A stretch of DNA of 64,000 nt from Escherichia coli (GTDB lineage: Bacteria > Pseudomonadota > Gammaproteobacteria > Enterobacterales > Enterobacteriaceae): the NCBI RefSeq assembly GCF_003334815.1, contig NZ_QOWO01000002.1, one strand, 5' to 3'. A program made the position numbers and the translations under genes. This document shows, piece after piece, positions 10,747 to 55,487 of this stretch. Within the stretch, counting starts at the first letter, position 1. The number at the start of each line of letters is the position of its first letter. The notes beneath the pieces were generated by a model, which was given only the letters and a program-made list of their open reading frames with translations, ran no database searches and had not been told where the DNA came from.

Positions 10747-10825
10747 CGAACGTAGGCCTGATGCGGCGCATTAGCATCGCATCAGGCAATCAATAATGTC
10801 AGATATGAAAAGCGGAAACATATCG

Positions 10826-12190: not shown

Positions 12191-12229
12191 TGCGTAGACC
12201 GGAAAAGGCGTTCACGCCGCATCCGGCCA
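12191..12229. repeat. REP (repetitive extragenic palindrome) element
   Basis: Sequence GTAGACCGGAAAAGGCGTTCACGCCGCATCCGGCC matches the enterobacterial REP consensus. Confidence 0.6.
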
Positions 12230-31232: not shown

Positions 31233-31828
31233 CCACGCTGACAGCACAACAGATTGCCTGTGTTTACGCCTGGCTAGCGCAGTTGTTCTCCCGTGAGCTG
31301 GACGATGAACAACTGACGCAAATCGCCAGTGCGCAGATGGCTGAATGGTTTTCGTTGCTGAAAAGCGAACCGCCGCTCACTGCGGCGGTGAACGAGCTGG
31401 AAAACCGTATTGCCACGCTGACAGTACGTGACGATGCCCGTCTGGAACTGGCCGCGGACTTTTGCGGCCTGTTTCTGATGACCGACAAACAAGCGGCGCT
31501 GCCGTATGCATCGGCCTACAAACAGGACGAGCAAGAGATTAAACGCTTGTTAGTTGAGGCAGGGATGGAAACCAGCGGCAATTTCAACGAACCGGCAGAT
31601 CATCTGGCGATCTATCTCGAATTGCTCAGCCATCTGCATTTTTCGCTGGGAGAGGGGACCGTTCCTGCGCGAAGAATCGACAGTTTGCGGCAAAAAACAC
31701 TGACGGCGCTGTGGCAATGGTTACCAGAGTTTGTTGCGCGTTGTCGTCAGTATGACAGCTTTGGTTTTTACGCGGCACTAAGCCAGTTATTGCTGGTGTT
31801 AGTGGAGTGCGACCACCAAAACAGATAA
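31229..31828 (+). CDS. torD: TorA-specific chaperone (redox enzyme maturation protein)
   Basis: ORF 31196..31828; 199-aa product from [20 protein letters not shown]; start overlaps torA stop. Confidence 0.9.
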
Positions 31829-31839
31829 CGTCGTTTGTG

Positions 31840-31972
31840 CGCCTGAAAAGACGCGTTTAGCGTCGCATCAGGCATTATGGCGCAGTTGCCGGATGCGGCG
31901 TGAACGTCTTATCCGGCCCACAGGAACTGTAATCTTTGTAGACCGGTTAAGATGCGTCATCGCATCCGGCAA
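31840..31972. repeat. cluster of REP elements (BIME-like) downstream of torD
   Basis: Three imperfect palindromic units containing GCCGGATGCGGCGTGAACG / CGCATCAGGC-type REP motifs. Confidence 0.6.
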
Positions 31973-31979
31973 ACACACA

Positions 31980-32285
31980 TCACGGATGAGCTACAAACCG
32001 GGAAAGCCGCTGGCGCAGCAGGCGGTTTTCCTGCTTCAGGTGCGCAATATCATCCATTAACGTCAGCGCCACCGCGATCCCCGGCCAGTCCAGAGCCAGT
32101 TCATGACGCAGGCGTACCGCGCGTTGCACCACAATGGCGGCATGGTCGTCAAATACCCAGGTTGTTTCCTGGATCTCACGCGGTTCAACCACCCCCAAAC
32201 CGACAATTTCATTCAACTCCTCTTCAGAGATGCCGGTATGCAGGCAAAATTCGGTAATAGTAAAAGTCACCGTAACATTAGCCAT
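31980..32285 (-). CDS. cbpM: CbpA modulator (MerR-like) CbpM
   Basis: ORF 31980..32300; 101-aa product [28 protein letters not shown].... Confidence 0.85.
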
Positions 32286-50540: not shown

Positions 50541-50575
50541 TGTCGGCTGGATACGGCGTTTACGCGGCATCCGGC
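50541..50575. repeat. REP element
   Basis: GTCGGCTGGATACGGCGTTTACGCGGCATCCGGCA matches the REP consensus. Confidence 0.55.
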
Positions 50576-50707
50576 AAGAACACATGGTTCTTTGCAAACA
50601 ATCCCATCTTTCTACCCTGGAATAATCGTTTATATCCCTTGGCATTACCTCTCTTTGTTTACATTCCAACATCATTTTATAAACATTCCGCTTGTGTTTT
50701 TCTTTGC

Positions 50708-50785: not shown

Positions 50786-51616
50786 ATGTTTGTTCCGTTT
50801 CTCATTATGTTGCGCGAAGGACTTGAAGCCGCGCTGATTGTCAGTTTGATTGCCAGCTATCTTAAGCGTACCCAGCGAGGCCGATGGATTGGTGTGATGT
50901 GGATTGGCGTGTTGCTTGCCGCTGCGTTGTGCCTGGGCTTGGGTATCTTCATTAACGAAACCACCGGCGAATTTCCGCAAAAAGAACAGGAACTGTTTGA
51001 AGGTATCGTGGCGGTGATCGCCGTGGTGATCCTTACCTGGATGGTTTTCTGGATGCGCAAAGTGTCGCGCAACGTCAAAGTGCAACTGGAACAGGCAGTC
51101 GATAGCGCATTGCAGCGTGGAAATCATCATGGCTGGGCGCTGGTGATGATGGTCTTTTTTGCCGTTGCAAGGGAAGGGCTGGAGTCGGTCTTTTTCCTGC
51201 TGGCGGCATTTCAACAAGATGTCGGGATCTGGCCGCCGCTGGGTGCAATGCTCGGTCTTGCTACTGCCGTGGTGCTAGGCTTCCTGCTCTACTGGGGCGG
51301 TATTCGCCTCAATCTTGGTGCATTTTTTAAATGGACCAGCCTGTTTATTCTCTTCGTCGCCGCAGGGCTGGCAGCTGGTGCCATTCGCGCATTTCATGAA
51401 GCCGGATTGTGGAACCACTTTCAGGAAATCGCCTTCGATATGAGTGCGGTGCTCTCAACTCACTCGCTGTTTGGCACGCTGATGGAAGGGATTTTTGGCT
51501 ATCAGGAAGCGCCGAGCGTCAGCGAAGTCGCCGTCTGGTTTATTTATCTCATCCCGGCGCTGGTGGCATTTGCTCTGCCACCACGCGCAGGGGCGACAGC
51601 GTCTCGCTCCGCGTAA
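50786..51616 (+). CDS. efeU: ferrous iron permease EfeU (FTR1 family), apparently intact
   Basis: ORF 50777..51616; 276-aa product from MFVPFLIMLREGLEAALIVSLIASYL with two REGLE motifs (REGLEA, REGLES) in one uninterrupted frame. Confidence 0.88.
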   Translation: MFVPFLIMLREGLEAALIVSLIASYLKRTQRGRWIGVMWIGVLLAAALCLGLGIFINETTGEFPQKEQELFEGIVAVIAVVILTWMVFWMRKVSRNVKVQLEQAVDSALQRGNHHGWALVMMVFFAVAREGLESVFFLLAAFQQDVGIWPPLGAMLGLATAVVLGFLLYWGGIRLNLGAFFKWTSLFILFVAAGLAAGAIRAFHEAGLWNHFQEIAFDMSAVLSTHSLFGTLMEGIFGYQEAPSVSEVAVWFIYLIPALVAFALPPRAGATASRSA

Positions 51617-54078: not shown

Positions 54079-54084
54079 TGTTTT

Positions 54085-54222
54085 TAGGCGGATAAGGCAT
54101 TTGTGCGCAGATGCCTGATGCGACGCTTGCGCGTCTTATCATGCCTACAATCAGTGCGGGTTTGGTAGGCTGGATAAGGCGTTCACGCCGCATCCGGCGA
54201 TCGTGCACTGATGCCTGATGCA
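54085..54222. repeat. REP element cluster (BIME) downstream of efeB
   Basis: Several units: GGCGGATAAGGCATTTGTGCGCAGATGCCTGATGCGACGC..., GGCTGGATAAGGCGTTCACGCCGCATCCGGCG, TGATGCCTGATGC. Confidence 0.6.
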
Positions 54223-54255
54223 AATCCTGCTGAAAGCACACAGCTTTTTTCATCA

Positions 54256-54273
54256 CTGTCATCACTCTGTCAT
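54256..54273 (+). promoter_or_regulatory. Pho box (PhoB binding site) upstream of phoH
   Basis: CTGTCATCACTCTGTCAT: two direct CTGTCAT heptads 11 bp apart, as in the PhoB consensus, about 150 nt upstream of the phoH ORF. Confidence 0.65.
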
Positions 54274-54422: not shown

Positions 54423-55487
54423 ATGGTAACGTCCTGTACTGGACATGTTTTAGATAATCAACGCGCCACCACTCGCGGAGTTTTCTCCTCCGGTAGTCAT
54501 CTCGTCACTTTGCATTTTCAACCTCATCCTTTCTTTTCATGTGTTACCGACGCCGTAAACGGTGCGCGTAGCCGTTTTTCGGCATTTTATCCAAAAGCAA
54601 ACTATGGCTTACAAGGAAGCCAACCCTCTGATGTTCGTGCGCATAATCGCGCTGCCAACGGCGCGTGTGATGAATACAAACAACTCAAGGTGCTCTCCAT
54701 GGGAAGACAAAAAGCAGTGATCAAAGCTCGTCGCGAGGCAAAACGTGTGCTGAGACGGGATTCGCGCAGCCATAAGCAGCGTGAAGAAGAATCGGTCACC
54801 TCGCTTGTGCAGATGGGCGGCGTAGAAGCCATTGGTATGGCCCGCGACAGTCGCGATACTTCGCCCATCCTCGCGCGAAATGAAGCGCAATTGCACTATC
54901 TGAAGGCTATTGAGAGTAAGCAGCTGATATTCGCCACGGGCGAAGCCGGGTGCGGAAAAACCTGGATCAGCGCAGCAAAAGCGGCAGAGGCCCTGATACA
55001 TAAGGATGTCGACAGGATTATCGTCACCCGTCCAGTTCTGCAAGCCGATGAAGATCTTGGCTTCTTACCTGGAGATATCGCAGAAAAGTTTGCTCCCTAT
55101 TTTCGCCCGGTCTACGACGTGCTGGTCCGGCGCTTAGGGGCTTCCTTTATGCAGTACTGCCTGCGACCGGAAATAGGGAAGGTGGAAATTGCGCCGTTCG
55201 CCTATATGCGTGGACGTACCTTTGAAAATGCAGTCGTCATTCTTGACGAGGCGCAGAATGTGACTGCCGCGCAAATGAAAATGTTTTTAACCCGCCTCGG
55301 GGAGAACGTGACGGTTATCGTCAACGGTGATATCACGCAATGCGATTTGCCTCGCGGCGTGTGCTCCGGATTAAGTGACGCGCTGGAACGTTTCGAAGAA
55401 GATGAAATGGTTGGGATCGTCCGGTTCGGTAAAGAGGACTGCGTACGTTCGGCACTTTGCCAACGTACGCTGCATGCCTACAGTTAA
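54423..55487 (+). CDS. phoH: PhoH, phosphate-starvation-inducible ATPase (Walker A GEAGCGKT)
   Basis: 354-aa ORF MVTSCTGHVLDNQRATT... with P-loop; the true start may be internal. Confidence 0.85.
   Translation: MVTSCTGHVLDNQRATTRGVFSSGSHLVTLHFQPHPFFSCVTDAVNGARSRFSAFYPKANYGLQGSQPSDVRAHNRAANGACDEYKQLKVLSMGRQKAVIKARREAKRVLRRDSRSHKQREEESVTSLVQMGGVEAIGMARDSRDTSPILARNEAQLHYLKAIESKQLIFATGEAGCGKTWISAAKAAEALIHKDVDRIIVTRPVLQADEDLGFLPGDIAEKFAPYFRPVYDVLVRRLGASFMQYCLRPEIGKVEIAPFAYMRGRTFENAVVILDEAQNVTAAQMKMFLTRLGENVTVIVNGDITQCDLPRGVCSGLSDALERFEEDEMVGIVRFGKEDCVRSALCQRTLHAYS

What the first reader, a model, noticed from the sequence alone, without database searches (positions are those of the whole stretch)
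31840..31972. REP/BIME clusters mark several gene 3' ends
REP-type palindromes occur downstream of appA (12191..12229), torD (31840..31972), ymdF (37782..37892), putP (50541..50575) and efeB (54085..54222). They are expected in E. coli and may stabilise upstream mRNA, and their copy number per site often varies between strains.
Basis: established knowledge. Interest (0 to 1): 0.1.

Follow-up and report, generated by a model that had tools for sequence, protein, structure and literature searches.

The report
Ordinary E. coli REP/BIME repeat clusters
The flagged sequence is a textbook cluster of three REP palindromes (a BIME-2 element) between the ends of torD and cbpM in E. coli; the reading is correct and the copy number does vary between strains, but this is ordinary, well-described biology.

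Summary
Window 31837-31971 holds three REP units in alternating orientation (z2, y and a y/z hybrid). They fill the 151-bp gap between the convergent genes torD and cbpM. The window is E. coli, close to K-12. REP consensus matches occur 4-5 times in the window against 0 in shuffles, and both strands fold far better than shuffles (z -5.3 and -7.5). The other four listed sites are also real REPs.

- The "appA" REP lies in the etk 3'UTR, between the etk stop codon and its terminator.
- The "putP" REP is 299 nt past the putP stop codon.
- A REP between appX and appA (10752-10787) was missed.
- A REP-like hairpin between rutR and putA (44313-44343) was missed.

I ran the suggested inter-strain test on 5,426 complete genomes.
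- torD-cbpM has alleles of 92, 151/153, 254 and 355 bp, which are 1 REP plus a remnant, 3, 5 and 7 REPs. Some strains also carry IS1397 or an IS10-like element in the loop of the first REP.
- The ymdF-rutG BIME-1 is present in only about 32% of genomes.
- The appX-appA, putP and efeB sites are nearly fixed in REP content.

The likely function is a 3'UTR hairpin block, acting as an mRNA stabiliser and partial terminator. This is inferred from the literature, not shown at this locus. Novelty: already known. Interest is low.

The parts
31837..31874 (+). REP1, z2 type (38 nt). It reads 5'-GTGC...GGCA on the plus strand and begins 8 nt after the torD stop. GTAG has decayed to GTGC in this strain.
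   Evidence: Second hairpin of the Rfam naRNA4 match. The orthologue in B2 strains is a canonical GTAGGCCTGATAAGACGCG....
31875..31886 (.). Short head-to-head linker (S-type) between REP1 and REP2.
   Evidence: The same linker recurs in every tandem unit of the 5- and 7-REP alleles.
31887..31921 (-). REP2, y type (35 nt). It reads 5'-GTGG...GGCA on the minus strand. GTAG has decayed to GTGG.
   Evidence: (2 mismatches to the y consensus). First hairpin of the naRNA4 match.
31922..31937 (.). Tail-to-tail linker between REP2 and REP3.
31938..31971 (+). REP3, a y/z hybrid (34 nt) with GTAG intact. It ends 8 nt before the cbpM stop codon, which is on the minus strand.
   Evidence: In the 92-bp allele it is fused to the REP2 head through a 59-bp deletion at GATGCG microhomology.
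10752..10787 (+). Single z-like REP that starts 5 nt after the appX stop and lies upstream of appA. Listed as REP89 in the preprint supplement.
   Evidence: Fixed in 5399 of 5426 genomes.
12194..12227 (+). Single y REP in the etk 3'UTR. It starts 11 nt after the etk stop and lies upstream of the etk-strand terminator at 12160-12135.
37784..37882 (.). BIME-1: z1 REP (37784-37812, inverted), L linker with an IHF-like site CAATATATTGAAT (37813-37847), and y REP (37848-37882).
   Evidence: It is part of a 174-bp insertion that about 68% of genomes lack.
50542..50576 (+). Single degenerate y REP (GTCG in place of GTAG), 299 nt past the putP stop and 210 nt before efeU. Listed as REP94 in the preprint supplement.
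54084..54225 (.). Atypical, BIME-2-like cluster after efeB: a decayed unit (54084-54112), z2 (54113-54148, inverted), y (54165-54199) and a partial z head (54213-54225). Listed as REP95 in the preprint supplement.
44313..44343. REP-like hairpin GCCGGAGGAGG...CCTCCGGCTAC between the convergent genes rutR and putA. Associated with REP93 in the preprint's bidirectional-terminator table.

Best explanation
The focal feature is a BIME-2-type REP cluster (z2 - S linker - y - linker - hybrid REP) that fills the gap between the convergent operons torCAD and cbpAM of E. coli.

Shown here:
- It matches the y and z2 REP consensus.
- The units are imperfect palindromes in alternating orientation.
- The region forms very stable hairpins on both transcribed strands.
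- No canonical intrinsic terminator is present in this gap.
- The array grows and shrinks in units of about 101 bp (one z2 plus one y) between strains.
- Its first REP loop is a natural insertion target for IS1397.

Inferred from published work on other REPs:
- In RNA the hairpins sit at the 3' end of both mRNAs, where they block 3'-to-5' exonucleases and attenuate read-through, partly with Rho. This would limit collision of the two convergent transcripts.
- The outer hairpins begin only 8 nt from each stop codon. They therefore fall in the class reported to stall terminating ribosomes and lower translation.
- In DNA, BIME-2 arrays are gyrase sites and substrates or relics of the REP-associated transposase TnpA_REP. 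Two of the three units here have lost the GTAG that this enzyme needs.
For: - Identity: consensus matches with none in shuffles. Arms mapped.
- Rfam: the naRNA4 model, which is a Y-l-Z2 BIME-2 unit, matches 31840-31918 on the minus strand at 69.1 bits against a gathering threshold of 59.5.
- Location: the cluster lies in the 151-bp torD/cbpM convergent gap.
- Structure: MFE -67.2 and -71.7 kcal/mol, z = -5.3 and -7.5.
- No hairpin with a U-tract in the gap.
- Copy-number alleles of 92, 151, 153, 254 and 355 bp with a 101-bp period. In 60 evenly spaced genomes, 27 have 3 REPs, 19 have the 92-bp allele, 7 have 5 REPs and 2 have 7 REPs. A further 4 rows matched only in part (one IS10-like insertion, one IS1397 insertion, one 7-REP array, one not examined) and 1 row was an off-target match.
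- IS1397 sits in the REP1 loop with a TTTA duplication.
- Family definitions and known copy-number variability: PMC3333891 and PMC8266576.
- Terminator plus stabiliser role of a BIME-2 array, and higher expression of convergent pairs with REPs: bioRxiv 10.64898/2026.03.23.713779.
- The rule that a REP less than 16 nt from a stop lowers translation (Liang 2015), as summarised in PMC12306157.
Against: - No expression, half-life or termination data for torD or cbpM were available. Neither gene appears in the preprint's held supplementary tables of Rho sites or bidirectional terminators, although that file was truncated.
- The same preprint found no genome-wide difference in mRNA half-life for REP-terminated genes.
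- About one third of genomes do well with one REP plus a short fused hairpin. Two of the three K-12 units have decayed GTAG motifs. Both facts fit weak or no selection on the exact array.
Confidence: 0.85

Rival explanations
1. The cluster is essentially neutral or selfish DNA. It would be a decaying non-autonomous mobile element (a RAYT/TnpA_REP relic) that changes size by replication slippage or recombination and has no host function at this locus.
For: - Large copy-number polymorphism, from 1 to 7 REPs, in healthy natural isolates.
- GTAG is mutated in REP1 (GTGC) and REP2 (GTGG), and TnpA_REP of E. coli tolerates no GTAG change.
- IS insertions in the array are tolerated.
- The ymdF-rutG BIME-1 is absent from about 68% of genomes.
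- The 2026 preprint saw no genome-wide half-life effect of REPs.
Against: - Every allele examined keeps a stable hairpin within about 8-10 nt of each stop codon.
- Stems are conserved while loops vary, and REP3 differs from z2 by a paired T-A to G-C change.
- No other terminator exists in the gap.
- Published REP deletions do alter neighbouring gene expression.
Confidence: 0.3
2. The main role is translational. Because a REP hairpin starts less than 16 nt after the stop codon of both torD and cbpM, terminating ribosomes stall, the mRNA is cleaved, and tmRNA/SmpB lowers the yield of TorD and CbpM.
For: - The spacing is 8 nt on each side and is kept across alleles.
- Comparable spacing at etk (11 nt) and about 5 nt at appX and efeB.
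- The rule is as summarised in PMC12306157.
Against: About half of all E. coli REPs meet this spacing, so it is not specific to this locus. No ribosome profiling or tmRNA-tagging data were examined. The original paper could not be read here.
Confidence: 0.3
3. The feature is a gene for a small nucleoid-associated RNA (naRNA4/CssrE-like) that binds HU and condenses DNA.
For: The Rfam RF02564 match is above the gathering score and covers the full model with both hairpins. Qian et al. 2015 proposed this role for REP325 units.
Against: - No promoter-like site is found in or near the gap.
- The Rfam model is simply one Y-l-Z2 BIME-2 unit. The REPs at 37851 and 54087-54257 match it below threshold, and the opposite strand matches it too.
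- The 2026 preprint from the same laboratories found no nucleoid compaction by REP325 or naRNA4.
Confidence: 0.04
4. The main role is at the DNA level. The BIME-2 would be a high-affinity gyrase site or topological insulator that relieves positive supercoils piling up between two convergent operons.
For: BIME-2 composition (z2 plus y with a short linker) and a convergent location. Gyrase binding to BIME-2 is reported in the literature cited in PMC2817692 and PMC3333891.
Against: This cannot be tested with sequence tools. The 92-bp allele, with a single intact REP, is common.
Confidence: 0.2

Closest known systems
BIME-2 (bacterial interspersed mosaic element type 2; tandem y/z2 REP arrays of E. 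coli, e.g. REP325 between yjdM and yjdN)
   Same: Composition of z2 (38 nt here; 37 nt in PMC8266576) and y (35 nt) units in alternating orientation with a short head-to-head linker. The array varies between strains in whole z2+y units of about 101 bp. It is extragenic and at gene 3' ends. It matches the Rfam model built from a REP325 unit.
   Different: The window has only 3 units, against 12 in REP325. The third unit is a y/z hybrid. Two units have lost GTAG. The array lies between convergent genes rather than inside an operon.
BIME-1 / RIP (REP-IHF-REP) elements
   Same: The ymdF-rutG element (37784-37882) has z1 (29 nt), a 35-nt L linker with an IHF-like site, and y, in single copy. Its right-hand flanking motif recurs next to the BIME-1 at yajD-tsx.
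   Different: The focal torD cluster is not BIME-1. It has no long L linker and no z1 unit.
Rfam RF02564 naRNA4 (CssrE) and RF02751 ES036 (CssrF)
   Same: 31840-31918 on the minus strand scores 69.1 bits against a threshold of 59.5. 37805-37847 on the minus strand scores 38.5 against 37.6.
   Different: These 'sRNA' families describe pieces of BIMEs (a Y-l-Z2 unit and the BIME-1 L linker). A match shows repeat membership, not an independent RNA gene. No promoter was found.
Rho-independent bidirectional terminators between convergent genes
   Same: Same position and strong hairpins on both strands.
   Different: There are no U-tracts at the torD-cbpM cluster. At appA-etk and ymdF-rutG, separate canonical terminators sit beside the REPs.

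Membership tests
E. coli REP / palindromic unit (y, z1, z2) | Sequence match to the y or z consensus far beyond chance | tested here: met
   The y consensus with up to 3 mismatches gives 4 hits against 0.00 in shuffles. The z2 consensus gives 1 hit against 0. Head and tail scans locate all units.
E. coli REP / palindromic unit (y, z1, z2) | Imperfect palindrome of about 29-38 nt able to form a stem-loop with an internal mismatch | tested here: met
   Inverted arms I4 and I5 are 14 nt and 79% complementary.
E. coli REP / palindromic unit (y, z1, z2) | Extragenic location, typically at gene 3' ends | tested here: met
   All sites fall between annotated genes of the MG1655 record. Five 3' ends (appX, etk, torD, cbpM, efeB) have a REP no more than 11 nt from the stop.
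Active substrate of TnpA_REP (RAYT) | Intact 5' GTAG tetranucleotide; no substitution is tolerated by the E. coli enzyme (PMC8266576) | tested here: not met
   REP1 has GTGC, REP2 has GTGG, and only REP3 has GTAG. Orthologous units in B2 strains mostly keep GTAG. The window copies are therefore REP relics rather than demonstrably mobile units.
BIME-2 | Made of z2 and y units in inverse orientation with a short linker | tested here: met
   z2 (31837-31874), a 12-nt linker, then inverted y (31887-31921). Definition from PMC3333891.
BIME-2 | Occurs as tandem copies whose number differs between strains at one locus | tested here: met
   Alleles with 1 REP plus a remnant, 3, 5 and 7 REPs and a 101-bp period.
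BIME-2 | High-affinity DNA gyrase binding and cleavage | not testable with these tools
   This is a biochemical property and no data were available here.
BIME-1 (for the ymdF-rutG element) | One z1 and one y unit separated by the long conserved L linker that carries an IHF site | tested here: met
   z1 of 29 nt, a 35-nt linker containing CAATATATTGAAT (one mismatch to YAANNNNTTGATW), and y. The linker matches Rfam ES036. IHF binding itself was not testable.
Rfam RF02564 naRNA4 | Covariance-model score at or above the gathering threshold, over the full model | tested here: met
   69.1 bits against 59.5, model positions 1-77.
Rfam RF02564 naRNA4 | A discrete HU-binding RNA with a role in the nucleoid | not testable with these tools
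   No promoter was found. The role itself is disputed by bioRxiv 10.64898/2026.03.23.713779.
Intrinsic (Rho-independent) terminator | G+C-rich hairpin followed by a U-tract | tested here: not met
   None is found in 31829-31979. The only hit in 31600-32200 lies inside torD.

The most novel reading that the evidence does not exclude
The ymdF-rutG comparison gives a clean before-and-after pair for a BIME-1 insertion. About 68% of genomes carry one bidirectional terminator hairpin. The K-12-type allele has a 174-bp BIME-1 block inside that hairpin, with the roughly 23-bp hairpin duplicated on both sides. As a result, each convergent transcript would have to cross the BIME before reaching its U-tract.

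If hairpin duplication is a general signature of BIME insertion, it would point to a hairpin-targeted insertion mechanism that is not described for TnpA_REP. Separately, the equal 8-nt spacing of REPs from both the torD and cbpM stop codons could reflect selection for a two-sided translational brake.
Probability: 0.1. Interest if true: 0.35.

Novelty: already known. Interest (0 to 1): 0.07.

Why it matters
It matters little beyond correct annotation. REP/BIME elements are the commonest repeats of E. coli, and their structure, strain-to-strain variability and use as IS1397 targets have been described since the 1980s and 1990s.

The practical points are these:
- Rfam "sRNA" hits such as naRNA4 and ES036 at these sites should be read as repeat matches, not as RNA genes.
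- REP sites differ widely in stability. The torD-cbpM site is a real multi-allelic marker and a natural allelic series (1, 3, 5 or 7 REPs). That series could be used to test the current terminator-plus-stabiliser model of REP function.

Tried and rejected
- I looked for a canonical terminator or promoter in the torD-cbpM gap and found none. This rejects both "simple intrinsic terminator" and "independent sRNA gene".
- I checked whether the Rfam naRNA4 hit is locus-specific. It is not: other REPs in the window, and the opposite strand, match the model below threshold.
- I tried to read Liang et al. 2015 (PubMed 25891074), Bachellier et al. 1997 (PMC1207841), Clement et al. 1999 (PMC94167) and Wilde et al. 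2003 (PMC169884). None is held. Their content is cited only through later papers or from general knowledge.
- I searched the 2026 preprint supplement for torD and cbpM and found no entries. The supplement of Qian 2015 is not held. The labels REP90-92 for the appA-etk, torD-cbpM and ymdF-rutG sites are therefore only inferred from the order of REP89, REP93, REP94 and REP95.
- I suspected that the +124-bp allele at putP-efeU was an extra REP. It is a different repeat inserted at window 50367, and the REP itself is unchanged.
- I tested whether the flanks of the ymdF-rutG insertion exist elsewhere. The full pair occurs only at this locus (1730 genomes). The right flank also sits next to the yajD-tsx BIME-1 in the O157 lineage, so it is part of the BIME-1 mosaic.
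- A fuzzy-regex extraction of all REP units missed copies and was replaced by a plain mismatch scan and by reading alignment A1.
- Large loci were not exported to the Python sandbox, so a whole-window comparison with MG1655 was done piecewise only.

Full report
**What the window is.**
- A 2-kb query around the finding is 100% identical to K-12 and other phylogroup-A-like E. coli chromosomes, and it is found in 5,421 of 5,426 complete genomes.
- Gene names were taken from the MG1655 record.
- The window is not MG1655 itself. It lacks IS1D upstream of gfcA.
- It has an intact 831-bp efeU frame where K-12 has a frameshift.
- It carries two single-base differences that none of the 5,426 genomes share across the 500-600-bp queries used (window 50487 and 54304).
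- Because of IS1D, window coordinates before about 19.97 kb are MG1655-locus L002 coordinates plus 779.

**The observation.**
- The stretch 31829-31979 is the 151-bp gap between the torD stop (31826-31828, plus strand) and the cbpM stop (31980-31982, minus strand).
- It contains three REP units in alternating orientation. Written in the GTAG-first convention of Ton-Hoang et al. (PMC3333891), they are:
  - REP1, 31837-31874, plus strand, z2 type.
  - REP2, 31887-31921, minus strand, y type.
  - REP3, 31938-31971, plus strand, a y/z hybrid.
- The y consensus with up to 3 mismatches occurs 4 times in the window and never in 100 dinucleotide shuffles. The z2 consensus occurs once against zero.
- Arm pairs are confirmed by the repeat finder.
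- Both strands fold much better than shuffles: -67.2 kcal/mol with z = -5.3, and -71.7 kcal/mol with z = -7.5.
- The four other listed sites are also real REPs.

1. The REP at 12194-12227 is 70 nt past the appA stop. On the other strand it starts 11 nt after the etk stop, and it precedes the etk-strand intrinsic terminator (stem 12160-12135 followed by TTTTTT). Functionally it is an etk 3'UTR element.
2. The REP at 50542-50576 is 299 nt from the putP stop and is degenerate.
3. The torD cluster is just as much the 3' end of cbpM.
4. A REP that starts 5 nt after the appX stop (10752-10787) was missed. So was a REP-like hairpin between rutR and putA (44313-44343).
- The supplement of bioRxiv 10.64898/2026.03.23.713779 lists REP89 (appX/appA), REP93 (rutR/putA terminator), REP94 (putP/efeU) and REP95 (efeB/phoH) at matching MG1655 coordinates.
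- That supplement also records in-vitro Rho-binding regions right next to REP94 and overlapping REP95.

**Classification.**
- Published definitions give y as 35 nt, z1 as 29 nt and z2 as 37 nt, each preceded by GTAG (PMC8266576).
- BIME-1 is z1 plus y in single copy with a long L linker that carries an IHF site. BIME-2 is z2 plus y with a short linker, in tandem copies whose number differs between strains (PMC3333891).
- The torD-cbpM cluster is BIME-2.
- The ymdF-rutG element is BIME-1. It has a 29-nt z1, a 35-nt linker with CAATATATTGAAT, and y.
- The efeB cluster is an atypical or decayed BIME-2-like array.
- Rfam agrees in its own terms.
  - The naRNA4 model, which is one Y-l-Z2 unit of REP325, matches 31840-31918 on the minus strand at 69.1 bits against a threshold of 59.5.
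  - ES036 matches the BIME-1 L linker at 38.5 bits against 37.6.
  - Other REPs in the window and the opposite strand match naRNA4 below threshold. These families therefore report repeat membership, not RNA genes.
- In this strain, REP1 and REP2 have GTGC and GTGG in place of GTAG. The E. coli REP transposase does not tolerate such changes. These two units are probably immobile relics.

- Representative alleles have gaps of these sizes:

| Gap | Strains |
|---|---|
| 92 bp | NCTC8623 |
| 151 bp | K-12 type |
| 153 bp | O157:H7 |
| 254 bp | 1162T7 |
| 355 bp | E2348/69, MEI3O-23, ATCC 25922 |

- The alignment shows z2/y units repeating with a 101-bp period, giving 3, 5 or 7 REPs.
- The 92-bp allele is a 59-bp deletion between GATGCG in the REP2 head and GATGCG in REP3. 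It leaves REP1 plus a short perfect hairpin.
- The 60 genomes taken at even steps down the ranking gave these counts:

| Rows | Allele |
|---|---|
| 27 | 3 REPs |
| 19 | 92-bp allele |
| 7 | 5 REPs |
| 2 | 7 REPs |
| 4 | partial matches |
| 1 | off-target match |

- Three of the four partial rows were opened. They carried an IS10-like insertion, an IS1397 insertion and a 7-REP array. The fourth was not examined.
- IS1397 sits in the loop of REP1 with a TTTA duplication. The IS10-like ISVsa5 sits in the same loop with a 9-bp duplication.
- All alleles keep a hairpin about 8-10 nt from each stop codon.

**Inter-strain test at the other sites.**
- The ymdF-rutG BIME-1 is present in 1,734 of 5,426 genomes. 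The rest have an "empty" site with a single bidirectional terminator hairpin.
- The appX-appA REP is fixed, in 5,399 of 5,426 genomes with the same length.
- The appA-etk REP is present in 3,739 of 5,426 genomes. In the others the whole gfc-etp-etk operon is deleted and appA abuts cspH.
- The putP-efeU REP is stable. A +124-bp allele there is an unrelated repeat.
- The efeB-phoH cluster has the same length within a few bases in 54 of 60 rows. A few genomes have 10-100-bp deletions.
- "Copy number varies" is therefore true for one site, "present or absent" is true for another, and the rest are stable.

**How it most likely works.**
- Shown here: strong hairpins on both strands at the ends of two convergent operons, no U-tract terminator in the gap, and conserved terminal hairpins across alleles.
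- Inferred from the literature:
  - REP hairpins protect upstream mRNA from 3' exonucleases and attenuate transcription, partly through Rho.
  - The 2026 preprint shows both effects for REP325. It reports higher expression of convergent gene pairs that have a REP between them. It also finds no general half-life effect and no nucleoid compaction by naRNA4.
  - REPs that begin less than 16 nt from a stop codon are reported to lower translation (Liang 2015, as summarised in PMC12306157). In this window torD, cbpM, etk, appX and efeB all meet that spacing.
  - BIME-2 arrays are also reported to be gyrase sites.
- None of these functions was tested for this locus. The neutral-relic view remains a serious partial rival, given the polymorphism and the decayed GTAG motifs.

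**Verdict.** The finding is correct and ordinary. The only mildly new item is the ymdF-rutG insertion with a duplicated terminator hairpin, which is noted below.

Noticed in passing
window 37739-37935: The ymdF-rutG BIME-1 is part of a 174-bp insertion inside a bidirectional terminator hairpin. The hairpin is duplicated: the left copy is CACCGCCGGTTACCCGGTGGTT and the right copy is CACCGCCGGTAACCCCGGCGGTT. The U-tract for each strand lies beyond the distal copy, so both transcripts would carry the BIME in their 3'UTR. About 68% of 5,426 genomes have the empty site with a single hairpin.
   Followed up: partly
It is fixed in length in nearly all E. coli genomes.
   Followed up: yes
window 44313-44343: A REP-like hairpin GCCGGAGGAGGTTGTAACATCCTCCGGCTAC fills the 39-bp gap between the convergent genes rutR and putA. 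A published table of bidirectional terminators links this terminator to REP93.
   Followed up: partly
window ~19975-19985: The window has the uninterrupted site GACAATACG where MG1655 carries IS1D (768 bp plus a 9-bp duplication) upstream of gfcA. The source strain is therefore not MG1655.
   Followed up: yes
window 50786-51616: efeU is an intact 831-bp frame here, whereas in MG1655 it is an 830-bp frameshifted pseudogene. The +1 base explains a one-base coordinate shift downstream. The exact position of the extra base was not located.
   Followed up: partly
window 50487 and 54304: There are two single-base differences from MG1655: T for C in the putP-efeU spacer, and A for G just downstream of the CTGTCAT repeats upstream of phoH. 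No genome among 5,426 was 100% identical over the queries covering them.
   Followed up: partly
L010 (strain EC4) and L007/L011 (strains 43905, EE72d), orthologous to window 31855-31860: Two unrelated insertion sequences landed in the same REP1 loop. IS1397 has a TTTA duplication. The IS10-like ISVsa5 has a 9-bp duplication of CGTTTAGCG/CGTTTAGTG.
   Followed up: yes
window 50367 (allele in L018, strain PM22): Some strains carry a 124-bp G+C-rich insertion just after the putP-proximal hairpin. It is a different repeat family from REP and was not identified.
   Followed up: no
window 55289-55482, minus strand: There is a strong Rfam match to Ysr251 (189 bits), antisense to the 3' end of phoH. 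The cspA thermoregulator model also matches the cspG leader at 20735-21157.
   Followed up: no
window ~12116 to cspH; L019: In about 31% of E. coli genomes the whole gfc-etp-etk operon, with its REP and terminator, is deleted. In those genomes appA abuts or overlaps cspH.
   Followed up: partly
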